A DNA stretch of 64,000 bases from Oscillospiraceae bacterium. GTDB lineage: Bacteria; Bacillota; Clostridia; Oscillospirales; Ruminococcaceae. The position numbers and the translations under genes are program-made. The notes beneath the pieces were generated by a model, which saw nothing but the letters and a program-made list of their open reading frames with translations, made no database searches and was not told the origin of the DNA. Shown piece by piece: positions 2,146 to 16,077 of the stretch (position 1 is the first letter of the stretch; each line of letters opens with the position of its first letter). Location of the stretch: contig JAFTYW010000036.1 in NCBI GenBank assembly GCA_017461245.1, forward strand, positions 17,829 through 81,828, read 5' to 3'.

Positions 2146-5100
2146 TTATTGATTTATAAGTTCGTAATATACACATGCAGAATTTCCGTATTTCATCATT
2201 GCTTTTACAAGCTTACTCAGATTTTCATCCTCATCGTTTTGCTTTGTATATGCGTATGACTCAATACTATAGCATATCGTGTTACTTACAGCTACATCTC
2301 CGTTGTATACAGTTACATAAACTGCTTCACTCATCTGTGCGGCGCTTAAACAATCAAAGTAGACATAATAGTTATCTTCTGTCTTTTCAAATTCTCTACT
2401 CTTAATTGTCCATTTTTCTCCGTCTTCTGTTGTTATTTTAACAGTAAGATTTTGAATGTTCTCAGCATAAAGCTTGAATCTCAATGTTATTGAATCTCTA
2501 AGATTTAAGCCTGCGCCCTTCCATGTAACTGTGGGATTTTCTATTGTAGCGTATTCTTTATTCATTACTGATTCGAGCGTCGGGTCTTCTGCTGTTCCCC
2601 AAGCCTTTTGAGTTTCTGTGAGCGAAGCATTTACCAATGCATCTGTTCTATAACTCTGGTATGTCTGTGTTTCTGCTCCGTAATTAAGCAGATCTACAAG
2701 CAGGGTTCTGAATTCTGCATAGGCATCTGCCGAGTACTTGTTGAGCATATTGTAGCAGTATTCTGCTACGCTGTATTCTCTTGTTTCACTTTCATTTAAG
2801 GTGTTTCCGAAGTTTGCATAAAGGGTTGCATAAATAGTGTCGTTCATCTGGTAGGGTGCAATATCTGTAAAGTCAAATATATATTTGTCACCATCTACTC
2901 TGTATTCACTTACTACTGTTTCTTTACCATTTAATACAAACTTAACATAAGGATCTGAATATCCGTTCTCCTCAAACAAGGATTTTTTGACCTTATAGTT
3001 TATTGCAAGATTATCCTGTAATGTAAGTGATGCGCCTGAGAATTTAAGGTCTGCACCTTCTACGCTCAAGGTCTCGTCGGTTGCTGTTAATGCAAAGGTT
3101 GAGAATCTGTCGACCTCGAAGGTTATGGTATTAGGATCGTCGTCAAGGTCTGCAAGTGTTACTACCTCTCCGTTATGAACGTGAAGCATATTGTAATGCT
3201 TGTATCCGCGGTATTCCTCGGGAATATCCATTGTGATGCGGAATTTGCCCTTTGCTCCTGTATCCTTATACACATTTGTGATCTTGGTTTCCTCATCACC
3301 GCTGGTCTTAGTCATTGAGATCTCGTAATACTGCTTGATCTCTTTCTCTCCTGCGGTGTCCTGCATTGAATGGTGTATAAAGTCTTGCTCGTTCTTTATT
3401 CCATCAGTGCTTGCGGTATGTCCGTCTGTCTTGGTTACATTGATCGTAAAGGTTATTTCTTCTTTATTCTCAATGTTATCTCCGGAAAGGGCCAGACCTC
3501 CGTTTTCTACAGTTACCTTCTCGTTTTCGTTATCGGTTACTGCGTTGTAGGTTACGTTTGACAACCATTCCAGATATTTATTAAGGCGGTCAACATACTC
3601 CTTGGAGAGCTGTTTCTTTTCCTTATCAGAAAGTGCGTCGTAATGACGTTTTTCTTCTGCTATTCTATCTCTATAGTTTGCTGCCTCATTTCGATCCTTA
3701 AGCTCGGGGATATCGTTTTTAAACTTATCTTCTCTATCCTTGATCTTATCGCTCTTCTTAACAAATATATCGGTATTTCCATATACCTTACCGTCGCGTA
3801 CGACAACAACTGCAAAGCTCATTCCGTAGCTTTCTGTTATTGCGGTGACGAAGTACATTCCGTCTCTTACGTTTTTGAATACATATTTACCGTTATTTGT
3901 TGTTGTGCAGCGTGCTATTTCGTTATAGAATACATCGCGCAGGATAACCTCGCTTATCTGAGCCTCGCCCTGTGCTGTTACCTTTCCTGCAACTGTTGCA
4001 AGGTGGTCGTTCTCCTCATACAGAACTATTGTTTCTGCCTGGATGAGTCCGACTGCCTCTACGGTTACATAGGCGTAGCCCTTTAAGGCGTGGTTTCTGT
4101 CAAAGCCGTGTTTTTTATCCGGGCGCATTTCTGCAGTTTCTGCTACTATACTATAATTTCCGAGGGGAACATTTTCAAAGCGATATTCTCCTTGGCTATT
4201 GCTCTTGCACTGTGCAACGGCCACACCATCCTGATTATACAGGGTTACCTGTATCCACTTACGGCGGTTATGTCCTTTATCTCTGTCCTCTATCTCTACA
4301 TATCCCCAGATGGTTGCTGACTCTGCAGGAATTTCAAGGGTTATATCCGTTACTGTTCCGTTATGAACGGTAATTTCCTGTGTTACGCTTCCATTTTCGG
4401 TTTCTGCAGTTATTACATAGCTACCGTTGGGCAGGTTGTCTATTGTGAAGTTTCCGTTTGCATCGGTTGTAACGCTGACTATTACGTTTCCGTTTTCATC
4501 GGTTACTGTTACCTTTGAATTTCCTTCACTTACTGTTCCGCTGATGCTATAGCTCTTTTCGAGCTTAAGCTCTACATCTCCCTCTACGAAAACATCTGTA
4601 TCGTTCATTCTCTTTACAGAGATCTTACTTGATGCGCTGTTTCCGTTTACATCGGTTACCTTTATGGTATAATCTCCGATCTCTACATAGGTAAACGAGA
4701 ACTTACCTGTTGCATCGGTGGTTACTGTTTCCTTAACCTTTCCGTCTGCATATACCATCTGAACTGTTAAGCCTGTTGCTGCGGTTCCGTCGGTATATTT
4801 TACGGTTCCGCCAACCGAGGTTCCGTAGGAAACGTCGGGGTTCTCGGTCTTATTAATTACATGATAGGGATGATCAAACTCAACTGCATAGTTATGTGCG
4901 GGTGAGTTTTCATATACCATAAGCACTGTTGTTAACGGGAACAGCTCTGCTGCGCTCTCCAATACTGTATTCTCGGGAATAACTACGTTATCCAGTGAGC
5001 TACAGCCTGTGAATGCTGAATAGTATATATACTCTACACTGTCGGGCAGGGTTAACTGGGTCAGTGCGCTACAGCCATAAAACGCGTTGTCATATATGGT

Positions 5101-8100
5101 TGTTACAGCCTCGGGAATAACTATGCTTGTAAGGTTAGGACAGTTAGAGAAGAGCGAGGCGCTGATATTGTCAAGCTTACTTGAAAGCTTAACGGTTATA
5201 AGCGAACTACAGTTCTCAAATACTGCTACACCCATACTTGTTACGCTATTGGGAATGGTAACTCTTTTAAGTGAAGTACATCCGTAGAATGCAAAGTCAT
5301 CTACAGTTTTAACGCTGTTTGGAATAACTACCTGAGCTAATGCTGTACATTCATAGAATGCCTGCGAGTTAAGTATGGTAACTCCATTAGGAATAACCAC
5401 CTTAGTAATTGAGTCATTATTGTAGAATGCCGCAACTCCAATACTGGTTACCTTGTGTCCGTCTAAGCTCGGGGGGATTATGACCTCGGTTGCATCGCCG
5501 ATATATCCAGTTATCTCGGCTGTGCCGTTTGCAAGGATGGTGTACTCGAAGTCTGCCTCGTTTGAGTAATTGCCGTAAGACGCGCCGCAGACCTCACAAA
5601 CAGCCTTCTCGGTTTCTGTTGCGGTGCCGCCTGTGTGGGCGCCTGTTGCAGAGATTACTGTGCCCTTTTCTAATATAGTGCCGCAGTCCTTACATACAAC
5701 GTTGCCGGTGTATCCGTCTGCGCCGCAGGTTTCTTCTACAGCATTTCTGAGTTCGGTATTTGTGCCGTGGTTTGCGGCATCAAGCTCTCCGTAGGAAACG
5801 CCGCAAACCTCACAAACAGCCTGCTTGCTACAGGTTGCATTTCCGCCGGTGTGTCCAGACACCTCTCTTGTATTACCGCATGCATTACATACAGCATCGC
5901 AGGCATTATCATAGGTATGATCTACCTCAACAGTTCGAGTCCAACCACAGTTGTTACAGCTGCTGTCACAATCGCCGCTGTAGGTATGCTCGCCTATGCA
6001 GGTGTTGTAATGCCAGGTTGCATTAAGAAGATATTCATTATCTGTACCAAAGGTGATATTTTCTTTATCTGCCTCGGTGCCATCATACCAAACATCTGTA
6101 AGTGATACACATTCACTAAATGCATATTCGCCTATGGTTGTTACGCTATTGGAAATTGTGATGCTTGTAAGAGAAGTACAATTACAAAATGCATAATCGC
6201 CTATGCCGGTTACACTATCGGGAATTGTAATGTCTTTAAACGCGCTGCATTCACAAAATGCAAAATCACCTATGCTTGTTACGCTATCGGGAATTGTAAT
6301 GTCTTTAAGCGCGCTACACCCCTCAAATGCACTATCACCTATACTTGTTACACCATCAGGAATTGTGATGCTTGTAAGCGAATAACAACCATAAAATGTG
6401 TTGTCGTATATGGCTGTTACAGCCTCGGGAATAACGATGCTTGTAAGCGAATAACAGCCTCCAAATGCATCAGAGCCTATAGTTGTTACGCTATCGGGAA
6501 TTGTGATGCTTGTAAGCGAGCTACAATTATAAAATGCATAATCGCCTATGCCGGTTACGCTATCGGGAATTGTGATGCTTGTAAGCGAACTACAGTTATA
6601 AAATACGCTTACGCCTATACTTGTTACGCTGTCGGGTATTATAACACTGGTAAGAGCAAAACAATTCAAAAATACGCCATTGCCTATGCTTGTTACACTG
6701 TCAGGGATAGTGATGCTTACGAGTGAACTGCATTCACCAAACGTTCCACCGCCTATGCTTGTTACGCCATCAGGAATTGTGATGCTTGTAAGCGAATCAC
6801 ACCTATAAAATGCCTCATTTCCTATGCCGGTTACCTTATAGCCGTCGATAGTTGAGGGAATGGTAAGCTCGGTTTCTGAGCCTGTGTAGCCTGTTATCTC
6901 GATAGTTCCGTCTTCTAATACATTGTAGGTGTAATCAGAGGAAACAGCATAATCACCATACTCCTGTCCGCAGACATCACAAACAGCCTTCTGGGTCTCG
7001 GTTGCGCTGCCGCCTGTATGCTCGCCTGTTGCGGCAATAGTTGTGCCTGTTTCAATCACTGTGTTACAGTCAAGGCACCAGGTGTCGCCTGTATAGCCCT
7101 CATCGACACAGGTTGCATTTACTGCATCTCTGATCTCGGTGTTTGTGCCGTGAGCTGATGCATCAAGCTCTCCGTAGGACGTGCCGCAAACGGTACATAC
7201 TGCCTTATTTATACAGGTTGCTGTGCCGCCGCTGTGAGCGCCTGTTGCAGCAATAGTTGTACCTGTTTCAATCACTGTGTTACAGTCATAGCACCAGGTA
7301 TCGCCTGTGTAGCCGTCCTCACCGCAGGTTGCTTCTATTCTGCCTTTTATGGCAGTGTTAGGACCGTGGCCCAGTAAAGGAACTATATTACCCTCTTCAA
7401 TAATAGTGTTACAGTCAAGACACCATGTATCTCCCGAGTAACCATTTTCCAAACAGGTTGCCGCTAATTGATCTCTGATCTCGGTGTTTGTGCCGTGGGC
7501 TGTAGTGTCAAGCTCGCCGTATTCCTCGCCGCAAACAGCACATACTGCCTTTTTGCTACAAGTTGCGGTGCCACCTGTATGTTTACCGTTTTCACAGCCG
7601 GTGTAGTCACCCTTAAACTCGTCAAGGGCCTTAACGATCTTCATATCGCCTGTGTAGAAGGTTTTACCGTTTGTGTCAGAGAGATATCTGAATCCAACGG
7701 CTGTAACATTCTCTATAGCGGTAGAATTATAGAACTGCGACTGCGGAACTATGATCCAACCATCAAAGTTTGCGGGAATATTATAGGTTGTTGATGATTC
7801 TGTTATGGTTATGCAGGTATTATCTGTGTAGTTGATCAAAACTACATTCTGCCAATCGCATTTTCCGGTATTAGCATTTGTTGTGCCAACATGGATGTAG
7901 GCAGGAGTTTCTGTATCGCCAACGATCTTATGGCGAATTGCAACATAGTTGTAATCAGCAGCATCTGAATAAAGTGCGCTTATAGGCTGAACGCCGTAAA
8001 GCTCGCCTTCGTACGTGCCGCCTGCAGCGGTATTATCTGCTGTAGCGTTATAGCAAACGTTAAGCTCATAGGTTACAGGGAGATATGTTACCTGAGCAAC

Positions 8101-11100
8101 CTGCTCTTCAGTAACCTCGGTCTTAAACATATACTCTCCGTTTACATCTACACTGTCCTGATTATAGAACTTAGCGGTAGCTTTTTCGGTTGTTGTCCAT
8201 CTGGCCATACCCCAATAATATCCTGTTCCCTGAGGCTTATTCCAGCCGGTGTTATTATAGCTGATATTACCATCATCGCCAGGCTCGGGAACGGTAAAGA
8301 TATTTTTGTGATTTACAAGTGCAGGCTTAAGCTCGCCGTAGGCCTCGCCGCAGACATCGCATATTGCCTTCTCGGTCTCGGTTGCGGTGCCGCCTGTGTG
8401 GACGCCTGTTGCTGCAATGGTCGAACCTGTTGCGATCTTGGTGTTACAGTCAAGGCACCAGGTGTCGCCTGTATAGCCACCATCAACACAGGTTGCATCT
8501 GCTGCATCTCTGATTTCGGTATTCGCGTGATTAGTTGTGTCTACCTCACCGTATTCCTCACCGCAAAGTGCACAAACTGCCTTATTTATACAGGTTGCTG
8601 TTCCGCCTGTATGCTCGCCTATTGCAGAGATTACAGTGCCCGTTGCTATCTGGGTGTTACAGTCAATACACCAGGTATCGCCTGTATATCCATCATCGAC
8701 ACAGGTTGCATCTACTGCATCTCTGATCTCGGTGTTTGTGCCGTGAGCTGTAGTGTCAAACTCACCGTATTCCTCACCGCAAATCGTACAAACAGCCTTT
8801 TTGCTACAAGTTGCAGTTCCGCCTGAGTGAACTACATCTGCAAAGGCAACGGCGTGAACACTGTTAAACTGCTCTTTGTCGCTGAATACTACAATATCGC
8901 CGAGATAGAGAATCTTGTTGTCCCAGTCGCTGACACTATCATCAAATAAATGGGTGTCCGCACAGGTAGACTCATCATGCATAAATATCTGAATGCTTGC
9001 GACGCTTTCAGTCCAGATAGTTTTGCCATCATAGGTTTCGCTACCATAAGTCACACCGTCAGAAGCACTCATCGGGAATACTACCCAACCGTCAAACTCG
9101 CCCGTAAAGACGAGGTTGTATCCAGTCCATTCGGGGTCAATAACGGCTCCCGTCACCTTGTCAATGAGATAGGCTTCACTTAAATCTTGGATAAGCCTAT
9201 TAGAAGTGATACTACCATCGAGATTTACACCACTCCATAAGAAGAATGAACTCTTCTTATTTTCATCATTAAGCTCATCGATCTTAACTCTTATACCAAC
9301 ATAATTAAGGTTAGTTCTATCGATAGAGCTATGAAGTCCTGCCTCTGTTTCGGTCGCTCCGTTAAGATTGGCAATGCCACCATTATATGTGATTGAGTTT
9401 ACAAGGAAAGCCTGGTTTACGCAGCCTCTATCGGTACCTGCTTTTTCGTGTCCATCAGGATAGACCTCGCATTTATCAAGCTCGATAAAGGTTTCGCCAT
9501 GGATATTTTTTAAGAACAATCGCGAATAAGATACTGTTGATGTATGGGTTCCGTCCTCATTTTTAGCAAGAGCATAACTACCAGGCCAGCCCATATCTCG
9601 TTTTCCTAAAAGGGATTCATTCCACGCAAGATAAGGATGAGCTGAAATATCGTCATAGACATTCATAAAATAGCTTGCGCCGTCGCCCTTATGTGTGCTG
9701 TAAGGCGCGGTCCAAACCTCTTTGGATACTATGTTTGTCGACTCGGGATATTTAGCATAAATGGTATACTTTACATCCTTAGGAAGACTTGTTAAGGTTG
9801 CATTAAATGCCTCAAGGCTGAGCCAATTCTCCTCTGCGGCATCCTTATCCAGCGAGTAAACAAGTCCGGTTTTTGTGCTGGATACTGTAATAGAGGTTTC
9901 GGTTGAGGTAACCTCAAATTCCACAGTGAGAAGCTCGCCGTAAGACGCGCCGCAGACCTCGCATATTGCCTTCTCTGTTTCTGTTGCGGTGCCACCTGTG
10001 TGAGCTCCTGTAGCTTCTCTTGTCCAATCACAGTTGTTACAGGTGGAATCGCAATCGCCGCTGTAGGTATGCTCACCTGTGCAGGTGTTGTAGTGCCAGG
10101 TTGCATTTAAGAGGTTGTTATTATCTGAATCCTCATAAATGTAAATTTCGGCTTTCTGTGCTTCGGTGCCGCCATACCAAACATCTGTAAGTGATACACA
10201 TTCACTAAATGCATATTCGCCTACGCTTGTTACGCTGGCGGGAATCGTGATGCTCTTGAGAGAGCTACAACCGTTGAAGGTCGTTACAGCTATTTCTGTT
10301 ACGCCGTCAGGAATTATAATGCTGGTAAGTGCAGAACAGTACACGAACAAGCCGCCGCCTATACTTGTTACACCATCAGGAATTATAATGTTTTCAAGAG
10401 ACGAACAGCCTTCAAATACCTGCCATCCTATACTTGTTACGCTATCGGGAATTGTAATGCTTGTAAGCGAAGTACAGAACTCAAATAAATCGTCTGATAA
10501 ATGTGTTATTCCGTTAGGAAGTGTAACGCTTGTAAGCGAGGTGCAGCCATCAAATGCAAGGCGTTCTATGCTTGTTACGCTGTCAGGAATTGTAACACTT
10601 GTAAGCGAGGTGCAGCCAACAAATGCCTCAACACCTATGCTTATTACGCTGTCAGGGATTGTGATGCTTGTAAGAGAATTACAATGCAAAAACGCAGAAT
10701 CGCCTATGCTTGTTACACCATCAGGAATTGTAACACTTGTAAGTGATTCGCAATAACTAAATGCATTATTGCCAATTGCGGTCACCTTATAGCCGTCGAT
10801 GGTTGAGGGAATGGTAAGCTCGGTTTCTGAGCCTGTGTAATCGGTTATCTCAATTGTTCCATCTTCTAATACATTGTAGGTGTACTCATTTAAATAATGC
10901 CAGGTTGCATTTAAGAGGTAGTCATTGCTTGCGCCAAAGGTGATATTTTCTTTATCTGCCTTGGTGCCGTTATACCAAACGTCTGTGATAGCGGTACAGC
11001 CTAAAAACGCGTATTCTCCTATAGATGTTACGGTATTAGGAAGCACTACGCTTGTAAACGAGGTGCATCCTTCAAATGCACAGGCATTTATGGTTGTTAC

Positions 11101-14100
11101 GCTATCGGGAATTACTAATTCAGTAACAAGTTCACCATTGAGGTAAAGATTTTTTGCATAATTTAACGGGTTATTGCCAAAAGTGCCATACTCAATAGCG
11201 CACCACGCTGCAAGGTCGGAGATATCCACCCTTGTAAGAGCAGTACATTCATCAAAAGCTCCGGCTATGCTTGTTACGCCTTTTCCAATAGTTATGCTTG
11301 TAAGCGAGCTACAAGAATGGAATGCCCATTCATCTATGCTCATTACGCTATCGGGAAGCACAATGCTTTCAAGCGAGCTACAACCATAAAATGCAGAATT
11401 GCCAATGCTCGTAACACTATTTCCAATAGTTATATTTTTAAGTGAACTACATTCTTGGAATGCATGGTCTCCAATGCTCGTTACACCGTTTCTAATGGTT
11501 ACACTTTTAAGTGTGTCACAACCCAAAAAATAACTATCGATATTGGTTATACCACTTCCAATTACAACTGTTTCGAGTTTGGGGAAATTCCAGAAAGCAT
11601 CGCTAATACTGTCGAGGCTTGTTACTCCATCTCCAATTACTAAACTTGTAACAGAATCGCAACCAGAAAATGCACTATCTCCTATTTCTGTTACGCCGTC
11701 TCCAATTACTAGGCTTGTAACAGAATCGCAACCCATAAACGCAGTGTCTCCTATACTTGTTACGCTGTCAGGGATTATGATGCTTTTAAGTGATTCACAG
11801 GAGCAAAATGCATCATAACCTATACTTGTTACGCCTTCAGGAATTGTGACACTCTCAAGCGACTTGCAATCATAAAATGCATTGGCTCCGATGCTTGTAA
11901 CTCCTTTTCCAATGGTTACAGTTTCAAGATGATAGCAAAGAGAAAATGCATCATCGCCTATACTTTTTATACCATCAGAGATCGTAACACTTTTAAGGGA
12001 ATCGCAATGACAAAATGCCTCTGAGCCTATGCTTGTCACTGTATATCCATCTATAGTTGAAGGAATAACAACTGCAGATGCCGATTTGCTCCATCCTGTA
12101 ATTTCTATGGTGCCGTCAGCAAGCACAGAATAGGTAAACTCTGAGGGCAACAGACCATATTCCTGTCCGCAAGCATCACAAACAGGCTTCTCTGTATCTG
12201 TTACTGTTCCACCTATATGTGCTCCTGTTGCAGCAGTAGTCGTACCGGTTCCAGTCTGTGTGTTACAATTAAGGCACCAGATGTCTCCTGTATAACCGGT
12301 TGCACCACAAGTTGCCTCTGCAATGTTTCTGCGTTCGGTGCGGGTGTGAACTGTAGTGTCAACCTCGCCATATGACATACCACAATCAGTACATACTGCT
12401 TTTTCAATACAGGTAGCCGTTCCGCCTGTATGGTCAGCTGCTCCAAAGATTTCTCCGCAGGAGCAGGTGTAGAAATGCTGAGTGTCGTTAGTTTCAAACT
12501 TATCGTCTGCATCAACGTGCACGCCTGTGGCTTCAATAACTGTACCGGCCGAGAGCTGTGTTTCGCAAACAGTACACCAGGTATCGCCTGTATAGCCATT
12601 TTCAGAGCATGTTGCAGCTGTCGCATTTCTGATCTCTGTTATGTGAGAGTCGGTATATTCAGCACCGCAAATCTCACATACTGCCTTTTCGGTACAGGTA
12701 GCATCACCTATGTGACCGTTTGAACCGCAGGCATATTCCTCTAAAAAGCCTGTAGTGTCCTTTAAAATATGCATATTGCCAAAGTAAACAGTTCTGTTAT
12801 CCCAGTTATCTGTTTCGCTGCTTACTCTGAGCGCAAATCCAATTCTCTTTACAGCAGTGATCTCTGTTTTGAACGAGGTTGAGGGCACAATGATCCAGCC
12901 GTCAAAATTATACGGAATCGCAAGTGTTGTTCCGCTTTCAACGGTTGTTATACTGCTATCGTTGAAATCAACAAGCTTTACATTTGTAAGATCGGCAGGA
13001 TAACCGTTAGCCTCATTCACGCCGCAATGCAATGACAATGTAGAGGTTGTGTCTGCGCTGCCGCCTGTCATCTTAAAGCGGATAGCTATAGCGTTATAGT
13101 CTGCCACATCAAAATGAAGTGCTTCAAGAGTCTGCTCACCGTAAAGCTGTCCCTCATATGTTCCGCCCGTTACTGTATTATCTGCATTAGCATTAAAGTT
13201 AACGCCAAGCTCATAGGTTGCGGGAAGGAAGGTTATATTATAGTTCTTTGCGCCCGCTGTTGCAAAGCTTAAGGTGTCATCCAAGGTCTTAGTAAAGAAA
13301 TTCTCGCCGTTTAAGGTTACACTGGTAAAACGGCTAAAATAATCTGCTGTTGTCCATCTTGTAAGACCCCAATAATAGCCCGCTCCTTTAGGTTTATCCC
13401 AGCCGGCATTGTTATAGCAAATAAAGCTATCATCGCTCGGCTCTGGAACTGTGAATATGGGTTTGTCATTTGTTACTGTTGCATCAAGCTCACCATAAGA
13501 TGCTCCACACACCTCACAGACCGCCAGTCTGATTTCGGTCGCAGTTCCGCCTGTGTGGTCAGCCACATCAAGCTTTCCGCCGCAGGAGCAGGAATGGTAG
13601 TGCTGGGTCTCGTCATAAGACCATTCGCTGCTTACGTCGATATGATTATCAGTGTCTAATTCGCCGTATGATACACCACAAACAGAACAAACTGCCTTTT
13701 CCTTACAGGTTGCAGCTTTGCCTGTGTGATCAGCTACATCAAAGGTCTCGCCGCAGGAGCAGGTATAGAAATGCTGGGTATCGCTTGTTTCAAGCTTACC
13801 GTCTACATCAATGTGCTCACCGGTCGACTCAACGACCTTACCTGTTGAAAGCTGGGTATTACAGTCAAGACACCAGGTATCTCCTGTGTAGCCGTCCTGT
13901 GTGCAGGATACCTGTGTTACGTTTCTGATCTCGGTGTTGGGGTGGGTCGTGCCGTAGGACTCTCCGCAAACCTCACATACCGCCTTTTCGGTACAGGTCG
14001 CAGTTCCGCCTGTATGGCCTACCGCGCCGCAAACGTGAACGCTCTTAAACTGTTTTTCATCTTCAAATACTACAATGTCACCAAGATAGAGGATCTTGTC

Positions 14101-15903
14101 GTCCCAACCATCGATACTATGGGACTTACTATCGTGGCAAGGAGTTTCAGCATTGATTCCATTATGCATATAGAGATGAACGGAAAGTGAGCCATTACTG
14201 CTGCTACCGTTAGTAATATTGTCCTTGCCGTAAATGTCAAGAGGAACAACTACCCATCCATCAAAAGCGCCCTCAAAGATATAGTCTTTAGAGTTCCAGT
14301 TTTTCCAACTGTCAGGAGTACTGACGGCACCTGTTGCCTTATCGATCATATAGGCAGTGCCCAAAGTAGAGGTCATATTTCTTGCATTGATATAGAGATA
14401 AAAGCCGCTTGTTTTATTGTTCTCGTCCTCAATCTTAATTCTGATTGCCATATAATTAAGATCAGTTCTATCAATAGAGCTGTGGAGTCCTGAGGTGCTA
14501 ACAGAACCGTATGTAATAGCATCAGCTAAAACAGCCTGGTTTACGCAAGATGTTATCTCTTCGTTCTTGTCGAACTCGATAAAGGTTTCTTTGTTTCCCT
14601 TTGCATCGGCAAACTCTCTTATATGCAGAGCAGCTTCGTTCTGACCCTTCATATATGTGGTTTCATCATTATAGTACTTACAGAGTGTACCACTGCTTGA
14701 AGGCCAGCCAAGCTCTTGTATTCCAGCAGGTGAGATGTTCGCTTTGTATGTGATATATGGATTCTTTGTGATGTCATCATAGACATTCATAAAGTAGCTT
14801 GCGCTATCGCCCTTATGTGTGCTGTAAGGAGAGGTCCATATTTCTTTAGATGCAATTTTTGTACCGCCCACATACTTTGCATATATGGTATACTTAGTAT
14901 CTTTTTCAAGATCCGTAAGTGTTGCATTAAATGCGTCAAGCGCAAGCCAAGCGCTATCCCCTGCATCTTTATCGAGCGAGAAAACAGCGTCAGCATCTGT
15001 GCTGGTTACTGTGATGCTATTATCTGTAGAAGTCAGTTCAAATGACGGCATTCCCATAACGGTCTTTCTGAATGCATCAGCGTCCTTGACTATCATCATA
15101 TCGCCGAAATAAACACTTCTATTGTCCCAGTTATCAGTTTCAGAATTTACCATAAATCTGGGCGCAACTCTTTTAACCGCGTCAATTGTTGTTGAAAACG
15201 CGCTTGAGGGCACTATGATCCAGCCATCAAAGTTATAAGGAATGCTTATTGTTGTAGCGCCGTCAGCAACAGTTGTTGTTTCATTGCTGTTTAAATCAAT
15301 AAGCTGTGTACCTGTGACGGCAGGCGCATTTCCCGTGCCTGTACCAAAATACAATTCCATAGTAGAGGCAGTTGTTTCCAAGCCGCCTGTCATCTTAAAG
15401 CGCAAAGCTATGTAATTGTAATCAGCAGCATTGCTGTAAAGCGCACTGATAGCCTGTTCACCGTAGAGTTCACCAGCATAGGTTCCTCCCTCTACAGTAT
15501 TATTCGCATTAGCGCTAAAATTAACATTGAGCTCATAGGTTACAGGAAGAAATGTAAGTCTATGATTTGTTGCTCCTGTTGTAGCAAAGCTACCTGCGTC
15601 ACCAAATGTGTACTTAAAAAAGTTTTCACCATTTTCGGTTACACTGGTTGTGTACCTAAAAATTCCTCCGGCTCCTTCAGATGTTGTCCATCTGCCAACA
15701 CCCCAATGATAACCGTTGGCTTCGGTCGCTCCGGAGGGACGCGAGTTGTTGTACGAAATATATCCGTCCACACCCTCGTCAGGAACAGTAAAGATGGTTG
15801 CAGCATTTTCAGTTGTTTCTACTGTGGCCGCAAAAACCGAAAAAGGAATTGCGTTAAGCAGCAGAACTACACTAAGAATAACTGCCAGAATTTTCTTCTT
15901 CAT
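2146..15903 (-). CDS. Giant (4,585 aa) secreted multi-repeat surface/adhesin-like protein with BspA-type LRR arrays, Cys-rich repeats and prealbumin-like repeats
   Basis: An uninterrupted 13,758-nt ORF with SD AAGGAGAGG before the ATG. Sec signal peptide MKKKILAVILSVVLLLNAIPFSVFA/ATVE. The modular repeat structure is described in the sub-features and findings. I saw no LPXTG, SLH, dockerin or C-terminal TM segment. Confidence 0.95.
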   Translation of the reverse strand: MKKKILAVILSVVLLLNAIPFSVFAATVETTENAATIFTVPDEGVDGYISYNNSRPSGATEANGYHWGVGRWTTSEGAGGIFRYTTSVTENGENFFKYTFGDAGSFATTGATNHRLTFLPVTYELNVNFSANANNTVEGGTYAGELYGEQAISALYSNAADYNYIALRFKMTGGLETTASTMELYFGTGTGNAPAVTGTQLIDLNSNETTTVADGATTISIPYNFDGWIIVPSSAFSTTIDAVKRVAPRFMVNSETDNWDNRSVYFGDMMIVKDADAFRKTVMGMPSFELTSTDNSITVTSTDADAVFSLDKDAGDSAWLALDAFNATLTDLEKDTKYTIYAKYVGGTKIASKEIWTSPYSTHKGDSASYFMNVYDDITKNPYITYKANISPAGIQELGWPSSSGTLCKYYNDETTYMKGQNEAALHIREFADAKGNKETFIEFDKNEEITSCVNQAVLADAITYGSVSTSGLHSSIDRTDLNYMAIRIKIEDENNKTSGFYLYINARNMTSTLGTAYMIDKATGAVSTPDSWKNWNSKDYIFEGAFDGWVVVPLDIYGKDNITNGSSSNGSLSVHLYMHNGINAETPCHDSKSHSIDGWDDKILYLGDIVVFEDEKQFKSVHVCGAVGHTGGTATCTEKAVCEVCGESYGTTHPNTEIRNVTQVSCTQDGYTGDTWCLDCNTQLSTGKVVESTGEHIDVDGKLETSDTQHFYTCSCGETFDVADHTGKAATCKEKAVCSVCGVSYGELDTDNHIDVSSEWSYDETQHYHSCSCGGKLDVADHTGGTATEIRLAVCEVCGASYGELDATVTNDKPIFTVPEPSDDSFICYNNAGWDKPKGAGYYWGLTRWTTADYFSRFTSVTLNGENFFTKTLDDTLSFATAGAKNYNITFLPATYELGVNFNANADNTVTGGTYEGQLYGEQTLEALHFDVADYNAIAIRFKMTGGSADTTSTLSLHCGVNEANGYPADLTNVKLVDFNDSSITTVESGTTLAIPYNFDGWIIVPSTSFKTEITAVKRIGFALRVSSETDNWDNRTVYFGNMHILKDTTGFLEEYACGSNGHIGDATCTEKAVCEICGAEYTDSHITEIRNATAATCSENGYTGDTWCTVCETQLSAGTVIEATGVHVDADDKFETNDTQHFYTCSCGEIFGAADHTGGTATCIEKAVCTDCGMSYGEVDTTVHTRTERRNIAEATCGATGYTGDIWCLNCNTQTGTGTTTAATGAHIGGTVTDTEKPVCDACGQEYGLLPSEFTYSVLADGTIEITGWSKSASAVVIPSTIDGYTVTSIGSEAFCHCDSLKSVTISDGIKSIGDDAFSLCYHLETVTIGKGVTSIGANAFYDCKSLESVTIPEGVTSIGYDAFCSCESLKSIIIPDSVTSIGDTAFMGCDSVTSLVIGDGVTEIGDSAFSGCDSVTSLVIGDGVTSLDSISDAFWNFPKLETVVIGSGITNIDSYFLGCDTLKSVTIRNGVTSIGDHAFQECSSLKNITIGNSVTSIGNSAFYGCSSLESIVLPDSVMSIDEWAFHSCSSLTSITIGKGVTSIAGAFDECTALTRVDISDLAAWCAIEYGTFGNNPLNYAKNLYLNGELVTELVIPDSVTTINACAFEGCTSFTSVVLPNTVTSIGEYAFLGCTAITDVWYNGTKADKENITFGASNDYLLNATWHYLNEYTYNVLEDGTIEITDYTGSETELTIPSTIDGYKVTAIGNNAFSYCESLTSVTIPDGVTSIGDSAFLHCNSLTSITIPDSVISIGVEAFVGCTSLTSVTIPDSVTSIERLAFDGCTSLTSVTLPNGITHLSDDLFEFCTSLTSITIPDSVTSIGWQVFEGCSSLENIIIPDGVTSIGGGLFVYCSALTSIIIPDGVTEIAVTTFNGCSSLKSITIPASVTSVGEYAFSECVSLTDVWYGGTEAQKAEIYIYEDSDNNNLLNATWHYNTCTGEHTYSGDCDSTCNNCDWTREATGAHTGGTATETEKAICEVCGASYGELLTVEFEVTSTETSITVSSTKTGLVYSLDKDAAEENWLSLEAFNATLTSLPKDVKYTIYAKYPESTNIVSKEVWTAPYSTHKGDGASYFMNVYDDISAHPYLAWNESLLGKRDMGWPGSYALAKNEDGTHTSTVSYSRLFLKNIHGETFIELDKCEVYPDGHEKAGTDRGCVNQAFLVNSITYNGGIANLNGATETEAGLHSSIDRTNLNYVGIRVKIDELNDENKKSSFFLWSGVNLDGSITSNRLIQDLSEAYLIDKVTGAVIDPEWTGYNLVFTGEFDGWVVFPMSASDGVTYGSETYDGKTIWTESVASIQIFMHDESTCADTHLFDDSVSDWDNKILYLGDIVVFSDKEQFNSVHAVAFADVVHSGGTATCSKKAVCTICGEEYGEFDTTAHGTNTEIRDAVDATCVDDGYTGDTWCIDCNTQIATGTVISAIGEHTGGTATCINKAVCALCGEEYGEVDTTNHANTEIRDAADATCVDGGYTGDTWCLDCNTKIATGSTIAATGVHTGGTATETEKAICDVCGEAYGELKPALVNHKNIFTVPEPGDDGNISYNNTGWNKPQGTGYYWGMARWTTTEKATAKFYNQDSVDVNGEYMFKTEVTEEQVAQVTYLPVTYELNVCYNATADNTAAGGTYEGELYGVQPISALYSDAADYNYVAIRHKIVGDTETPAYIHVGTTNANTGKCDWQNVVLINYTDNTCITITESSTTYNIPANFDGWIIVPQSQFYNSTAIENVTAVGFRYLSDTNGKTFYTGDMKIVKALDEFKGDYTGCENGKHTGGTATCSKKAVCAVCGEEYGELDTTAHGTNTEIRDQLAATCLENGYSGDTWCLDCNTIIEEGNIVPLLGHGPNTAIKGRIEATCGEDGYTGDTWCYDCNTVIETGTTIAATGAHSGGTATCINKAVCTVCGTSYGELDASAHGTNTEIRDAVNATCVDEGYTGDTWCLDCNTVIETGTTIAATGEHTGGSATETQKAVCDVCGQEYGDYAVSSDYTYNVLEDGTIEITGYTGSETELTIPSTIDGYKVTGIGNEAFYRCDSLTSITIPDGVTSIGGGTFGECSSLVSITIPDSVTSIGNGVFLNCFALTSVIIPDSVTSIGVSVFYNCSSLTSITIPDSVTGIGDYAFYNCSSLTSITIPDSVTTIGSDAFGGCYSLTSIVIPEAVTAIYDNTFYGCYSLTSITIPDGVTSIGDSAFEGCSALKDITIPDSVTSIGDFAFCECSAFKDITIPDSVTGIGDYAFCNCTSLTSITISNSVTTIGEYAFSECVSLTDVWYDGTEADKENITFGTDNEYLLNATWHYNTCIGEHTYSGDCDSSCNNCGWTRTVEVDHTYDNACDAVCNACGNTREVSGHTGGNATCSKQAVCEVCGVSYGELDAANHGTNTELRNAVEETCGADGYTGNVVCKDCGTILEKGTVISATGAHTGGTATETEKAVCEVCGASYGNYSNEADFEYTILANGTAEITGYIGDATEVIIPPSLDGHKVTSIGVAAFYNNDSITKVVIPNGVTILNSQAFYECTALAQVVIPNSVKTVDDFAFYGCTSLKRVTIPNSVTSMGVAVFENCSSLITVKLSSKLDNISASLFSNCPNLTSIVIPEAVTTIYDNAFYGCSALTQLTLPDSVEYIYYSAFTGCSSLDNVVIPENTVLESAAELFPLTTVLMVYENSPAHNYAVEFDHPYHVINKTENPDVSYGTSVGGTVKYTDGTAATGLTVQMVYADGKVKETVTTDATGKFSFTYVEIGDYTIKVTDVNGNSASSKISVKRMNDTDVFVEGDVELKLEKSYSISGTVSEGNSKVTVTDENGNVIVSVTTDANGNFTIDNLPNGSYVITAETENGSVTQEITVHNGTVTDITLEIPAESATIWGYVEIEDRDKGHNRRKWIQVTLYNQDGVAVAQCKSNSQGEYRFENVPLGNYSIVAETAEMRPDKKHGFDRNHALKGYAYVTVEAVGLIQAETIVLYEENDHLATVAGKVTAQGEAQISEVILRDVFYNEIARCTTTNNGKYVFKNVRDGMYFVTAITESYGMSFAVVVVRDGKVYGNTDIFVKKSDKIKDREDKFKNDIPELKDRNEAANYRDRIAEEKRHYDALSDKEKKQLSKEYVDRLNKYLEWLSNVTYNAVTDNENEKVTVENGGLALSGDNIENKEEITFTINVTKTDGHTASTDGIKNEQDFIHHSMQDTAGEKEIKQYYEISMTKTSGDEETKITNVYKDTGAKGKFRITMDIPEEYRGYKHYNMLHVHNGEVVTLADLDDDPNTITFEVDRFSTFALTATDETLSVEGADLKFSGASLTLQDNLAINYKVKKSLFEENGYSDPYVKFVLNGKETVVSEYRVDGDKYIFDFTDIAPYQMNDTIYATLYANFGNTLNESETREYSVAEYCYNMLNKYSADAYAEFRTLLVDLLNYGAETQTYQSYRTDALVNASLTETQKAWGTAEDPTLESVMNKEYATIENPTVTWKGAGLNLRDSITLRFKLYAENIQNLTVKITTEDGEKWTIKSREFEKTEDNYYVYFDCLSAAQMSEAVYVTVYNGDVAVSNTICYSIESYAYTKQNDEDENLSKLVKAMMKYGNSACVYYELINQ
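3775..4830 (-). repeat. Four tandem prealbumin / CarboxypepD_reg-like (Cna-B-like) beta-sandwich repeats inside the giant CDS
   Basis: Each unit carries G(T/K)V...(D/N)xxGxxxxxxxV.L......T(T/D)xxGxFxFxN(V/L)xxGxYxI, for example GTVKYTDGTAATGLTVQMVYADGKVKETVTTDATGKFSFTYVEIGDYTIKV. Confidence 0.7.
4860..5575 (-). repeat. LRR array 4 (BspA/LRR_5-type, about 23-aa / 69-nt period) inside the giant CDS
   Basis: Repeats of the form IPNSVTSxGxxAFxxCSSLxxVxI following ...FEYTILANGTAEITGYIGDATEVIIPPSLDGHKVTSIG. Confidence 0.8.
5575..6010 (-). repeat. Cys-rich repeat block V inside the giant CDS
   Basis: EHTYSGDCDSSCNNCGWTR, DHTYDNACDAVCNACGNTRE, GHTGGNATCSKQAVCEVCGVSYGE, TELRNAVEETCGADGYTGNVVCKDCGT, AHTGGTATETEKAVCEVCGASYG. 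Confidence 0.8.
6030..6950 (-). repeat. LRR array 3 (about 12 units, 69-nt period) inside the giant CDS
   Basis: IPDSVT(S/G)IG(D/N)xAFxxC(S/T)SLTSITI units. The array ends with ...VWYDGTEADKENITFGTDNEYLLNATWHY. Confidence 0.85.
6958..7610 (-). repeat. Cys-rich repeat block IV inside the giant CDS
   Basis: Alternating HTGG(T/S)ATCxxKAVCxxCGxxYGE and TEIRDxxxATCxxxGY(T/S)GDTWCxDCNTxIExG units. Confidence 0.8.
8312..8850 (-). repeat. Cys-rich repeat block III inside the giant CDS
   Basis: VHSGGTATCSKKAVCTICGEEYGE, TEIRDAVDATCVDDGYTGDTWCIDCNTQI, EHTGGTATCINKAVCALCGEEYGE, TEIRDAADATCVDGGYTGDTWCLDCNTKI, VHTGGTATETEKAICDVCGEAYGE. Confidence 0.8.
9935..10090 (-). repeat. Cys-rich repeat block VI (short) inside the giant CDS
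   Basis: NTCTGEHTYSGDCDSTCNNCDWTREATGAHTGGTATETEKAICEVCGASYGE. Confidence 0.75.
10110..10890 (-). repeat. LRR array 2 (69-nt period) inside the giant CDS
   Basis: The array starts at YTYNVLEDGTIEITDYTGSETELTIPSTIDGYKVTAIGNNAF and ends at ...LLNATWHYNTC. Confidence 0.85.
10915..12150 (-). repeat. LRR array 1 (about 16 units, 69-nt period) inside the giant CDS
   Basis: The array starts at FTYSVLADGTIEITGWSKSASAVVIPSTIDGYTVTSIGSEAF. The run cttgtaacagaatcgcaacc recurs exactly 69 nt apart, at 11645 and 11714. Confidence 0.85.
12153..12735 (-). repeat. Cys-rich repeat block II inside the giant CDS
   Basis: GHIGDATCTEKAVCEICGAEY, TEIRNATAATCSENGYTGDTWCTVCETQL, DTQHFYTCSCGEIFGAADHTGGTATCIEKAVCTDCGMSYGE, TERRNIAEATCGATGYTGDIWCLNCNT, AHIGGTVTDTEKPVCDACGQEYG. 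Confidence 0.8.
13470..14045 (-). repeat. Cys-rich repeat block I inside the giant CDS
   Basis: GHTGGTATCTEKAVCEVCGESYG, TEIRNVTQVSCTQDGYTGDTWCLDCNTQL, DTQHFYTCSCGETFDVADHTGKAATCKEKAVCSVCGVSYGE, ETQHYHSCSCGGKLDVADHTGGTATEIRLAVCEVCGASYGE. Confidence 0.8.
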
Positions 15904-15958: not shown

Positions 15959-15986
15959 ATTATACTCCTTTTGGTTTAATTTGTAA
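15959..15986 (-). promoter_or_regulatory. Candidate promoter of the giant gene
   Basis: The minus strand reads TTACAA (15986-15981), a 16-nt spacer, then TATAAT (15964-15959), about 55 nt upstream of the ATG in a very AT-rich 220-nt intergenic region. Other AT-rich hexamers nearby could serve equally well. Confidence 0.35.
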
Positions 15987-16077
15987 ATATATTTTTTGTG
16001 ATATAATATATTTTCCATTCTGATAATTACAAAAATATTTACTATTTATAACAAAATCAGATGGTTGTGTTATATTT

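What the first reader, a model, noticed from the sequence alone, without database searches (positions are those of the whole stretch)
2146..15903. 13.8-kb gene for a 4,585-aa secreted mosaic protein built from a duplicated super-module, with no recognisable anchor
One uninterrupted ORF occupies about 21 % of the window. After a Sec signal peptide, I read the following order by eye.
- Module A (IFTVP...NFDGWIIVP...ETDNWDNRxVYFG, about 245 aa) occurs in 3 copies, at about 15060-15795, 12740-13465 and 7615-8306.
- Module B-C is an FN3-like unit (...SITVxST...YTIYAKY) followed by about 280 aa (SPYSTHKGDxASYFMNVYDD...FDGWVV.P...WDxKILYLGDIVVF). It occurs in 2 copies, at about 14045-15050 and 8855-9930.
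- Six Cys-rich blocks and four BspA-type LRR arrays follow.
- Then come four prealbumin-like repeats, a Lys/Glu/Asp-rich probable coiled coil (3570-3775), and a C-terminal region of about 470 aa (2146-3560) that I cannot assign.
- The first half (A, B-C, Cys, A, Cys, LRR, LRR) is echoed by the second half (Cys, B-C, Cys, A, Cys, LRR, Cys, LRR). This suggests an ancient internal duplication of several kb.
Modules A and C share a FDGW(I/V)(I/V)(V/F)P ... W D(N/D)(R/K) ... Y(F/L)G(D/N) signature and may be one unknown beta-sandwich (CBM-like) family. I found no LPXTG, SLH, choline-binding, dockerin or terminal TM segment, so how it is retained on the cell is open. By eye the gene also looks more AT-rich than the flanking housekeeping genes (not computed).
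Basis: partly seen in the sequence, partly recalled or inferred. Interest (0 to 1): 0.75.

Follow-up and report, generated by a model that had tools for sequence, protein, structure and literature searches.

The report
Giant gut-bacterial adhesin, candidate new anchor
This is a real 4,585-residue secreted surface protein of an uncultured ruminant-gut Oscillospiraceae bacterium; it is an ordinary kind of giant adhesin, but its last 306 residues are an undescribed module shared by hundreds of secreted proteins, which may be how it stays on the cell.

Summary
The ORF is real. It runs 2146-15903 on the minus strand, encodes 4,585 aa (about 495 kDa), and has its own promoter-like site, RBS and flanking hairpins. 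The identical protein is encoded on four contigs, with at least two samples seen, and its DNA repeats are at most 88% identical, so it is not an assembly artefact.

The module map is confirmed: signal peptide, module A three times, B-C twice, six Cys blocks, four BspA-type LRR arrays and four prealbumin-like repeats. A 1,700-aa super-module [B-C-Cys-A-Cys-LRR-LRR] is duplicated (53% identity, collinear).

Modules A and C are homologous in their C-terminal halves (hhalign E 2.8e-23). Module A models as a CBM-like jelly roll. The family is rare: 39 of 1.84 billion representative proteins.

The "unassignable" C-terminus splits into an unassigned 166-aa segment and a 306-aa module (CT). CT models at pLDDT 96 and has no Pfam, NCBIfam, PDB or BFVD counterpart. 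It is C-terminal in about 99% of the relatives examined and sits behind cohesins, LRRs and peptidoglycan hydrolases. It occurs at 272 loci in gut Clostridia genome assemblies (every listed one a MAG).

I infer that CT is a non-covalent surface-attachment module. That is not demonstrated.

The AT-richness claim is only marginal (GC3 0.40 vs 0.51).

The parts
2146..15903 (-). Whole gene: 4,585-aa (about 495 kDa, pI 4.4) secreted modular surface protein
   Evidence: ORF and translation. Identical protein on 4 contigs, with two samples shown. Mass and pI.
15959..15987 (-). Promoter-like site TTTACA-17-TATAAT (11 of 12 matches). The RBS AAGGAGAGG lies at 15908-15916.
   Evidence: This is a consensus match only.
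16085..16113 (-). Terminator-like hairpin ending the upstream SdpI-like gene, which makes the giant gene its own transcription unit
1928..1960 (.). 14-bp-stem hairpin flanked by A and T runs, 186 nt downstream of the stop codon. Probable bidirectional terminator.
15829..15903 (-). Sec signal peptide (aa 1-25, probable cleavage after VFA)
   Evidence: Sequence. It is the only strongly hydrophobic segment in the protein.
15058..15807 (-). Module A1 (aa 33-282), jelly-roll CBM-like domain of an uncatalogued family
   Evidence: HMM hits. AF2 model pLDDT 80, pTM 0.84. Foldseek best matches CBM86/11/30/6. No Pfam or PDB sequence match.
14839..15051 (-). Module B1 (aa 285-355), FN3-like by sequence pattern only
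   Evidence: 66% identical to B2. No Pfam match at E<=10.
14041..14835 (-). Module C1 (aa 357-621). Its C-terminal half is homologous to module A.
13489..14031 (-). Cys block 1 (16 Cys), made of C-x5-C-x2-CG..Y and C-x3-GYTGD-x2-C-x2-C units
   Evidence: Only sub-threshold zinc-ribbon hits.
12733..13470 (-). Module A2 (aa 812-1057)
12148..12726 (-). Cys block 2 (16 Cys)
10129..12141 (-). LRR arrays 1 and 2 (aa 1255-1925; about 13 + 8 units of 23 aa, BspA type)
   Evidence: Pfam LRR_5. 69-nt periodicity. Unit count.
9934..10128 (-). Cys block 3 (6 Cys)
8863..9927 (-). Modules B2 and C2 (aa 1993-2347)
8329..8850 (-). Cys block 4 (14 Cys)
7570..8313 (-). Module A3 (aa 2531-2778)
6949..7566 (-). 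Cys block 5 (17 Cys)
6034..6936 (-). LRR array 3 (aa 2990-3290, about 10 units)
5569..6033 (-). Cys block 6 (15 Cys)
4909..5568 (-). LRR array 4 (aa 3446-3665)
3784..4836 (-). Four prealbumin-like (CarboxypepD_reg / SdrD-B / SpaA type) repeats. Presumed stalk.
   Evidence: Pfam PF13620 89 bits, PF17210 81 bits, PF17802 53 bits. The fourth repeat was read by eye.
3565..3777 (-). Lys/Glu/Asp-rich segment (aa 4043-4113), presumed helical (not modelled), unassigned
   Evidence: No significant Pfam or PDB match
3067..3564 (-). Unassigned segment (aa 4114-4279) ending ...FEVDRFSTFALT. Fold not modelled; beta-rich and Ig-like is my guess from the sequence pattern.
   Evidence: No Pfam or PDB match. 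By eye, a similar segment precedes CT in P0086 and P0102.
2149..3066 (-). CT module (aa 4280-4585): two repeats of [beta-sandwich + helical hairpin]. Candidate cell-surface attachment module.
   Evidence: AF2 pLDDT 96.1, pTM 0.91. No PDB or BFVD analogue. 277 and 427 homologues, none annotated. C-terminal in all but one of 125 CT-bearing relatives. 272 loci in GTDB species genomes.

Best explanation
The gene encodes a giant, Sec-exported, cell-surface binding protein (adhesin) of an uncultured ruminant-gut Oscillospiraceae bacterium.

Its layout matches a Gram-positive surface adhesin read from the outside in:
- **Distal binding head (about 3,650 aa).** It carries five jelly-roll CBM-like modules (A three times, C twice) that probably bind glycans. 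It also carries four BspA-type LRR arrays that probably bind proteins or cells. FN3-like units and Cys-rich mini-domains act as spacers.
- **How the head grew.** It arose by duplication of a 1,700-aa super-module.
- **Stalk.** Four prealbumin-like repeats, a charged Lys/Glu/Asp-rich linker and an unassigned 166-aa segment.
- **C-terminal CT module (306 aa).** I propose it holds the protein on the producer's surface non-covalently, by binding a conserved envelope component such as a wall polysaccharide or a surface-layer element. This would be the role that SLH or CWB2 modules play in other Firmicutes.

**Shown:** the ORF, signal peptide, module map, duplication, A/C homology, fold predictions, and the distribution and partners of CT.

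**Inferred:** ligand types, the stalk role, and above all the anchoring role of CT.
For: **The gene is real and self-contained**
- ORF and its own expression signals.
- The identical protein is encoded on four contigs, and the two places shown come from two different samples.
- DNA repeats are at most 88% identical over at most 300 nt.

**Binding head**
- LRR_5 scores E 2e-303, and there is partial similarity to the LRR adhesin HupY/LrrG.
- Module A folds as a jelly roll closest to CBM86, CBM11, CBM30 and CBM6.
- A and C are homologous.

**Stalk**
- CarboxypepD_reg, SdrD_B and SpaA hits lie just before the C-terminal region.

**CT behaves like an attachment module**
- It is a compact, confidently folded unit (pLDDT 96).
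- Different proteins and species share about 49% median identity in CT while their N-terminal parts are unrelated.
- Among 125 CT-bearing relatives examined, CT ends within 38 residues of the C-terminus in all but one (P0022).
- Its partners are cohesins, LRR_5, Glug, transglutaminase-like domains, CBM26, CBM96 and two peptidoglycan hydrolase types (glucosaminidase and CHAP). None of the partner lists contains SLH, CWB, LysM or an LPXTG anchor.
- Several paralogues occur per genome.
- No gene family recurs next to CT genes across different loci.
- Of the 39 proteins with A/C modules, 5 end in CT and 17 end in a TM segment plus basic tail. Six of those 17 have a clear sortase-type xPxTG motif just before the TM segment. 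Two appear by eye to end in dockerin-like repeats. These are interchangeable tethers in one architectural slot.
- 78 of 115 CT proteins have a signal-peptide-like N-terminus.
Against: - There is no experimental datum for any part, and the organism is uncultured.
- CT is acidic (median pI 4.55). Several classical wall-binding modules are basic, to my knowledge.
- Foldseek gives only generic Ig/FN3 and weak CBM39-like matches, so the fold says nothing about the ligand.
- In one relative (P0022) CT is N-terminal, directly after the signal peptide.
- Cohesin-plus-CBM is also a known scaffoldin layout. CT could therefore be a substrate-binding module rather than a self-anchor.
- The module A model is only moderately confident (pLDDT 80) and its PDB matches are weak (E about 1e-3, TM 0.4-0.54).
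Confidence: 0.55

Rival explanations
1. CT is a substrate- or ligand-binding module, a new CBM-like unit for a plant, mucin or foreign-cell-wall polymer. It is not a self-anchor. The giant protein would then be released, or would bridge particles rather than being displayed on its producer.
For: - The CT sandwiches resemble carbohydrate-binding Ig-like sandwiches weakly: the beta-GRP/CBM39 N-domain at TM 0.56, and pullulanase N-terminal domains.
- The aromatic fraction is high at 13% and the pI is acidic.
- From general knowledge, primary scaffoldins combine cohesins with a CBM. CT occurs alongside CBM26 and CBM96.
Against: - A substrate-binding module would not be expected to sit at the extreme C-terminus in about 99% of cases.
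- It would not be expected to swap position with sortase signals in homologous passengers.
- CT is fused to peptidoglycan hydrolases, whose substrate is a bacterial wall.
- The giant protein already carries five CBM-like modules at the opposite end.
Confidence: 0.2
2. CT is a protein-protein docking module, functionally like a dockerin. It would plug secreted proteins onto a dedicated surface receptor or S-layer protein rather than onto a wall polymer.
For: - The best-conserved parts of CT are the helical hairpins (first hairpin 0.74, second 0.62), not the sandwiches (0.59-0.61).
- By eye, CT co-occurs with cohesin and dockerin-like modules in the same protein families.
Against: - No gene family recurs next to CT genes across different loci in 79 loci.
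- No candidate receptor was identified.
- Conservation at 45-65% across families from Oscillospiraceae to Lachnospiraceae-labelled MAGs would require an equally conserved receptor.
Confidence: 0.15
3. The ORF is an assembly chimera or repeat collapse, or a decaying gene. The apparent architecture would then be artefactual.
For: - The gene is highly repetitive.
- The NCBI copy of the MAG holds only a 924-aa C-terminal fragment (MBQ8869138.1), presumably because that assembly broke inside the gene.
Against: - The exact 4,585-aa product is on four contigs, and the two shown come from two samples in the same genomic context.
- There are no near-identical DNA repeats: the maximum is 88% over 67 nt, and longer repeats are at most 78%.
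- There are no internal stops in 13.8 kb.
- Relatives with the same module types exist (P0140, 3,057 aa).
Confidence: 0.02

Closest known systems
BspA-type LRR surface adhesins (Pfam LRR_5; e.g. Tannerella BspA, Streptococcus HupY/LrrG)
   Same: It has four LRR_5 arrays of 23-aa units (E 2e-303). It shows partial similarity to NF047961 HupY/LrrG. It is secreted, and a binding role is presumed.
   Different: - It scores 357 bits against the 1,250-bit equivalog cutoff, so it is not an orthologue.
- It is roughly 5 to 10 times larger.
- The LRRs make up only about a quarter of the protein.
- From general knowledge, those adhesins are anchored by LPXTG or a T9SS CTD. Neither is present here.
MSCRAMM/Sdr-type Gram-positive adhesins (distal binding region, B-repeat stalk, C-terminal wall anchor)
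   Same: The topology is the same: signal peptide, distal binding modules, prealbumin or SdrD-B-like repeats, and a C-terminal attachment region.
   Different: There is no LPXTG, TM segment or basic tail. The binding modules are unrelated to the MSCRAMM type. The attachment, if it exists, would be non-covalent.
Non-covalent wall-binding module families shared by paralogous surface proteins (SLH; CWB2 of the Clostridioides difficile Cwp family; choline-binding repeats)
   Same: The logic is the same. One conserved terminal module is shared by many secreted proteins with diverse functional parts, including wall hydrolases and scaffoldin-like cohesin proteins, with several paralogues per genome.
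   Different: - There is no sequence match to PF00395, PF04122 or PF01473.
- No SLH, CWB2 or other wall-binding structure appears among the top 50 PDB matches.
- CT is acidic.
- Its ligand is unknown and binding is untested.
Jelly-roll carbohydrate-binding modules CBM6, CBM11, CBM30 and CBM86
   Same: The predicted beta-jelly-roll fold of module A is similar. The modules occur in multiple copies in extracellular proteins of gut fibre-associated Firmicutes.
   Different: - Foldseek E is only about 1e-3 with TM 0.4-0.54.
- There is no sequence similarity: the only hit is CBM96 at E 0.029, below threshold.
- No binding-site residues can be assigned.
- The family is tiny (39 representatives).
P0140 and relatives (3,057-aa and smaller uncharacterised proteins found)
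   Same: They share the same signal-peptide type, A, B-C and Cys modules. P0140, P0142 and P0144-P0146 also end in a divergent CT.
   Different: - Module order and number differ.
- They have no LRR arrays or prealbumin repeats.
- Some carry an extra ~450-aa N-terminal domain of unknown family.
- None has any Pfam hit at all.

Membership tests
BspA-type LRR (Pfam PF13306 LRR_5) | Score above the Pfam gathering threshold, with repeated 23-aa units | tested here: met
   988 bits against a 27.7 cutoff, 11 stretches. 69-nt periodic DNA repeats.
HupY/LrrG adhesin equivalog (NF047961) | Whole-protein score at or above the curated cutoff of 1,250 bits | tested here: not met
   356.7 bits. Only the LRR parts match.
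Prealbumin-like / CarboxypepD_reg, SdrD_B, SpaA repeats | Score above the Pfam gathering thresholds | tested here: met
   PF13620 89.4 against 32.3. PF17210 81.3 against 29.7. PF17802 53.5 against 23.1.
Sortase substrate (LPXTG-type sorting signal) | C-terminal LPXTG-like motif followed by a hydrophobic segment and a basic tail | tested here: not met
   No such motif apart from an internal LPNT at aa 1621. No hydrophobic segment other than the signal peptide. The protein ends ...CVYYELINQ.
SLH, CWB2, choline-binding, LysM or dockerin modules | Match to the respective Pfam models | tested here: not met
   None is listed at E<=0.01 for the whole protein, or at E<=10 for the C-terminal pieces.
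T9SS C-terminal sorting domain (TIGR04183 / PF18962) | The domain lies at the extreme C-terminus of a protein from an organism with a T9SS (Bacteroidota) | tested here: not met
   TIGR04183 scores 23.7 bits against a cutoff of 23. The match is internal (aa 3790-3846), inside a prealbumin repeat with much stronger CarboxypepD_reg hits. The organism is an Oscillospiraceae.
Catalogued CBM families (via Pfam; fold via PDB) | Sequence match to a CBM model, or a close structural match with conserved binding residues | tested here: inconclusive
   The sequence test fails: CBM96 at E 0.029, 14.6 bits against 26. The fold is a jelly roll with weak matches to CBM86, CBM11, CBM30 and CBM6. Carbohydrate binding cannot be tested here.
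Fibronectin type III (module B) | Match to Pfam fn3-type models | tested here: not met
   No family at E<=10. The FN3-like label rests on sequence pattern only.
Superantigen beta-grasp domain (PF02876) for CT residues 168-236 | Score above the gathering threshold, shared by homologues, with a beta-grasp fold | tested here: not met
   - It scores 29 bits against 27 when CT is scanned alone, but 21-25 bits in other contexts.
- Only 1 of 41 CT homologues matches.
- The model is all-beta in that stretch.
- I treat it as a chance hit.
Proposed CT module family (defined here) | A unit of about 300 aa with two [sandwich + YS(V/I)xxYxY ... LLxxLxxYGxxAxxY helices] repeats, at the C-terminus of a secreted protein | tested here: met
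   The window protein is the query. Relatives are 45-65% identical over 95% or more of the module.

The most novel reading that the evidence does not exclude
The C-terminal 306-aa CT module is a previously undescribed family of non-covalent cell-surface anchoring domain in uncultured gut Clostridia (Oscillospiraceae, Acutalibacteraceae and relatives). It would define a whole 'CT-displayed' surface proteome of cohesin scaffolds, LRR adhesins, wall hydrolases and proteases. This 495-kDa adhesin is the largest CT-bearing protein recovered here. Modules A and C would in addition be a new CBM family.
Probability: 0.4. Interest if true: 0.7.

Novelty: new variant of a known kind. Interest (0 to 1): 0.5.

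Why it matters
Giant LRR adhesins in gut Firmicutes are common, so the protein as a whole is not surprising. The value lies in its uncatalogued building blocks.

- **CT.** If CT is an anchor, it shows how many abundant uncultured ruminant and human gut Clostridia display enzymes, scaffoldins and adhesins without sortase or SLH. It would also give a simple sequence handle for predicting their surface proteomes: 272 loci in GTDB species genomes and more than 400 protein clusters. It could serve as a display tag for engineering such bacteria.
- **Modules A and C.** If they bind glycans, they add a rare CBM-like family associated with fibre-rich gut habitats.
- **Annotation gap.** The public NCBI annotation holds only a 924-aa fragment of this gene. 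That illustrates how such proteins are under-represented in reference databases.

Tried and rejected
- **Word-indexed search with module A1.** It returned nothing. The cluster representative for this protein is the 924-aa fragment, which lacks module A.
- **Combined A-B-C profile.** My alignment became a profile of module A only (275 positions). B-C was therefore not searched exhaustively.
- **Pfam at E<=10 on each unassigned piece.** Only sub-threshold noise came back: CBM96, CIS_tube, zinc ribbons and Shr-like_HID.
- **PDB sequence searches.** CT, the linker plus 166-aa segment, a Cys block and the module A profile gave nothing credible.
- **Foldseek with CT.** Against PDB and BFVD it gave only generic tandem Ig/FN3 alignments, with TM 0.2-0.35 and rmsd about 15 A.
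- **CT as a phage endolysin wall-binding domain.** Only two 'Bacteriophage sp.' virome contigs match. The better one encodes a 1,182-aa secreted protein whose HELGH motif suggests a metallopeptidase, not an endolysin. It is probably bacterial DNA.
- **A conserved partner gene next to CT genes.** None was found in 79 loci.
- **Literature.** Searches for the motifs and for related descriptions found nothing relevant.
- **The ~450-aa N-terminal domain of P0140/P0147-type relatives.** I suspected a glycoside hydrolase. It has no Pfam or PDB match.
- **Horizontal transfer suggested by AT-richness.** This is not supported beyond a GC3 drop, which could equally reflect low expression. RSCU correlation with the neighbours is r 0.75.
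Full report
**1.

The minus strand carries one uninterrupted ORF from 15903 to 2146, encoding 4,585 aa. The predicted mass is about 495 kDa and the pI 4.4.

The gene looks like its own transcription unit:
- A terminator-like hairpin at 16113-16085 ends the upstream gene.
- A TTTACA-17-TATAAT site lies at 15987-15959.
- An AAGGAGAGG ribosome-binding site sits just before the ATG.
- A 14-bp-stem hairpin at 1928-1960 follows the stop codon.

The N-terminus is a typical Sec signal peptide and is the only strongly hydrophobic segment in the protein. There is no LPXTG-type motif and no C-terminal TM segment.

**2. It is not an assembly artefact**

- The neighbouring genes match proteins of an Oscillospiraceae MAG (MBQ88691xx).
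- In the NCBI copy of that MAG the giant gene survives only as a 924-aa C-terminal fragment.
- The exact 4,585-aa protein is on four ENA contigs, the longest 123.5 kb.
- The two places retrieved come from two different samples of a ruminant gastrointestinal metagenome series and have the same neighbours.
- The internal DNA repeats are old. The best is 88% identical over 67 nt, and the 200-300-nt families are 60-78% identical. There is nothing that short reads would collapse.

**3. Module map**

Self-comparison, HMMs built from the copies and Pfam/NCBIfam scans give this order:

| Module | aa range |
|---|---|
| Signal peptide | 1-25 |
| A1 | 33-282 |
| B1 | 285-355 |
| C1 | 357-621 |
| Cys1 | 625-805 |
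| A2 | 812-1057 |
| Cys2 | 1060-1252 |
| LRR1 | 1255-1668 |
| LRR2 | 1669-1925 |
| Cys3 | 1926-1990 |
| B2 | 1993-2063 |
| C2 | 2065-2347 |
| Cys4 | 2352-2525 |
| A3 | 2531-2778 |
| Cys5 | 2780-2985 |
| LRR3 | 2990-3290 |
| Cys6 | 3291-3445 |
| LRR4 | 3446-3665 |
| Four prealbumin-like repeats | 3690-4040 |
| Charged (Lys/Glu/Asp-rich) segment | 4043-4113 |
| Unassigned segment | 4114-4279 |
| CT | 4280-4585 |

- Only the LRR arrays (LRR_5, E 2e-303) and the prealbumin-like repeats (CarboxypepD_reg, SdrD_B, SpaA) belong to catalogued families.
- A, B, C, the Cys blocks, the charged segment, the 166-aa segment and CT have no Pfam hit even at E<=10, and no NCBIfam hit.
- A borderline T9SS-CTD hit (TIGR04183, 23.7 bits against 23) lies inside a prealbumin repeat, not at the C-terminus, and the organism is a Firmicute. 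I discount it.

**4. The internal duplication is real and can be stated more precisely**

- A global alignment of aa 283-1995 with aa 1990-3665 is collinear. Identity is 53% over 1,432 columns.
- The offset stays between about 1705 and 1735 for most of its length.
- The alignment score is 3251, against 35-65 for shuffled sequence.
- The protein is therefore A1 followed by two copies of a super-module of about 1,700 aa, [B-C-Cys-A-Cys-LRR-(Cys)-LRR].
- Some sub-blocks are more similar than the average. Parts of LRR2/LRR3 reach 70-82%. This suggests later exchange between copies or unequal divergence.

**5. Modules A and C**

- tblastn already links them weakly: 24.5% identity over 159 aa, E 4e-6 within the window.
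- The A profile finds both C copies, and the C profile weakly finds A2.
- Profile-profile comparison of 14-sequence alignments gives 99.5% probability and E 2.8e-23 over 128 columns.
The N-terminal halves are not detectably related.
- An exhaustive HMMER search of 1.84 billion representative proteins with the A profile finds only 39 proteins at E<=1e-3 and 7 at E<=1e-30. The family is rare.
- Six of these relatives, including one of 3,057 aa, were scanned against Pfam. None has any match.
- The AlphaFold model of A1 (14-sequence alignment, pLDDT 80, pTM 0.84) is a beta-jelly-roll.
- Its best PDB matches are CBM86, CBM11, CBM30 (TM 0.54) and CBM6, along with viral jelly-roll capsid proteins. 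All are weak, at E about 1e-3.
- 'CBM-like jelly roll of an uncatalogued family' is a fair description. Carbohydrate binding is an inference.

**6. The C-terminal region is the main new lead**

A search with aa 4114-4585 found 277 proteins. All align only to the last ~62% of the query, which is the CT module, at 43-65% identity. A profile of 17 diverse CTs found 427.

- None carries a functional name that fits, and none has a Pfam domain on the CT part.
- Their N-terminal parts are unrelated to each other. They include cohesin, LRR_5, Glug, transglutaminase-like, CBM26, CBM96, Flg_new, DUF6273, a glucosaminidase and CHAP-type amidases.
- By eye there are also dockerin-like repeats (P0128, P0137) and a probable metallopeptidase with an HELGH motif.
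- No SLH, CWB, LysM or LPXTG-anchor domain appears in any of these architectures.
- Among 125 CT-bearing relatives examined, CT ends within 38 residues of the C-terminus in all but one.
- Median pairwise identity among 121 CTs is 49%.
- In GTDB species-representative genomes there are 272 loci. All 79 listed come from gut MAGs, mostly ruminant, labelled Oscillospiraceae, Acutalibacteraceae, Faecousia, Ruminococcus, Eubacteriales and similar.
- Several paralogues occur per genome.
- No gene family recurs next to them across different loci.

**7. CT structure**

- The model is very confident (pLDDT 96.1, pTM 0.91). It shows two repeats, each a beta-sandwich of about 90 aa followed by a helical hairpin.
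- The first helical hairpin is the best-conserved part, at 0.74 against 0.59-0.62 elsewhere.
- Foldseek against the PDB and BFVD returns only generic tandem Ig/FN3 alignments (TM 0.2-0.35, rmsd about 15 A). There is also a weak single-domain resemblance to the beta-GRP/CBM39 sandwich.
- There is no sequence relative in the PDB.
- A just-above-threshold Pfam hit to the superantigen beta-grasp domain occurs in only 1 of 41 homologues and contradicts the model. I regard it as chance.

**8. Why I read CT as an attachment module**

The argument is architectural.
- (a) It is a conserved terminal module shared by many diverse Sec-secreted proteins in several copies per genome. SLH, CWB2, choline-binding and dockerin modules show the same pattern.
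- (b) It is the only candidate targeting domain recognised in the CT-bearing peptidoglycan hydrolases examined. From general knowledge, such enzymes normally carry a wall-targeting domain.
- (c) With cohesins it makes the layout of an anchoring scaffoldin.
- (d) Among the 39 proteins that share modules A/C, the C-terminus is CT in 5. In 17 it is a TM segment plus basic tail, and six of those have a clear sortase-type xPxTG motif such as SPETG, APETG, SPSTG or SPPTG just before it. In two it looks dockerin-like by eye. Known tethers and CT are therefore alternatives in the same slot.
- (e) In this protein CT follows a stalk-like run of prealbumin repeats, and the binding modules lie at the far end. 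This is the usual polarity of Gram-positive adhesins.

The counter-arguments are these:
- There is no experiment.
- CT is acidic (median pI 4.55).
- The fold gives no clue to the ligand.
- One relative carries CT at its N-terminus.
- A substrate-binding role or a protein-docking role would explain much of the same pattern.

I put the anchor reading at roughly 0.4-0.5, the substrate-binding rival at 0.2 and the protein-docking rival at 0.15.

**9. Smaller points**

- **Base composition.** The gene is only slightly AT-richer than its surroundings: GC 0.437 against 0.451 for the rest of the window and 0.472 for pooled neighbouring CDS. The difference is clearer at third positions, with GC3 0.40 against 0.51, lowest in CT at 0.31. 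RSCU correlation with the neighbours is 0.75. This is compatible with weak codon adaptation in a rarely expressed giant gene and is not good evidence for transfer.
- **Cys blocks.** They hold 84 of the 148 cysteines, in recurring C-x5-C-x2-CG..Y and C-x3-GY(T/S)G(D/N)-x2-C-x2-C units. The zinc-ribbon resemblance is sub-threshold only.
- **Module B.** It is FN3-like by pattern only.
- **'Coiled coil'.** It was not tested.

**10. Verdict**

The protein as a whole is a new variant of a known kind, the giant modular Gram-positive LRR adhesin. It is built partly from uncatalogued domain families, of which the CT module is the most consequential.

Noticed in passing
window 40762-42315 (+) and 42585-45740 (+): A low-GC stretch (GC 0.37-0.39, positive AT skew, about 40-43 kb) holds a 517-aa protein with an RsgI-like anti-sigma central domain. 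It is followed by a 1,051-aa GH3 enzyme whose Pfam C-terminal domain precedes the N-terminal domain, so the domain order is permuted.
   Followed up: partly
window 1415-1783 (-) and 1-1418 (-): A BlaI/MecI/CopY-type repressor lies directly downstream of the giant gene. Next to it is a BlaR1-like Peptidase_M56 sensor (847 aa on the longer contig) that runs off the start of the window.
   Followed up: partly
window 16122-16772 (-) and 16741-17025 (-): An ArsR-type HTH regulator (94 aa) overlaps the start of an SdpI/DUF1648 membrane protein immediately upstream of the giant gene. A terminator-like hairpin separates the pair from it.
   Followed up: partly
whole gene; NCBI protein MBQ8869138.1 (P0002): The public NCBI annotation of this MAG contains only the last 924 aa of the protein, named 'carboxypeptidase regulatory-like domain-containing protein'. 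That fragment is the 90% cluster representative, which is why a word-indexed search with module A found nothing.
   Followed up: yes
P0128 and P0137 (434 aa): These small secreted proteins combine two dockerin-like repeats (DLDGNGSIDNQDVEFLLWHTLFPEDYPL, read by eye), a short Cys motif and CT. If CT is an anchor, they would be adaptors that tether cohesin-bearing proteins to the cell.
   Followed up: no
P0140, P0147, P0153, P0154, P0157: Relatives with A/C modules share a further domain of about 450 aa (GLNFCNF...FWISPG...GFWWDEP...). It has no Pfam or PDB match. I suspected a glycoside-hydrolase-like catalytic domain but could not support it.
   Followed up: partly
L080 = MT838250.1, 1242-4790 (+): A human faecal virome contig labelled 'Bacteriophage sp.' encodes a 1,182-aa secreted protein with an HELGH motif, suggesting a metallopeptidase, that ends in CT (41% identical). 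It looks like bacterial DNA in a virome, and it shows that CT also occurs in human gut organisms.
   Followed up: partly
window 60532-60735 (-): There is a weak tblastn match of a Cys block (37% over 71 aa, E 3.5e-5). It lies antisense to a solute-binding-protein gene at 59932-61005 (+) and is most likely chance.
   Followed up: partly
aa 3790-3846 of the protein (window about 4366-4536): NCBIfam TIGR04183 (T9SS type A sorting domain) scores 23.7 bits against its cutoff of 23, inside a prealbumin repeat. This is an example of a curated cutoff being passed by a non-homologous beta-sandwich repeat in a Firmicute.
   Followed up: yes
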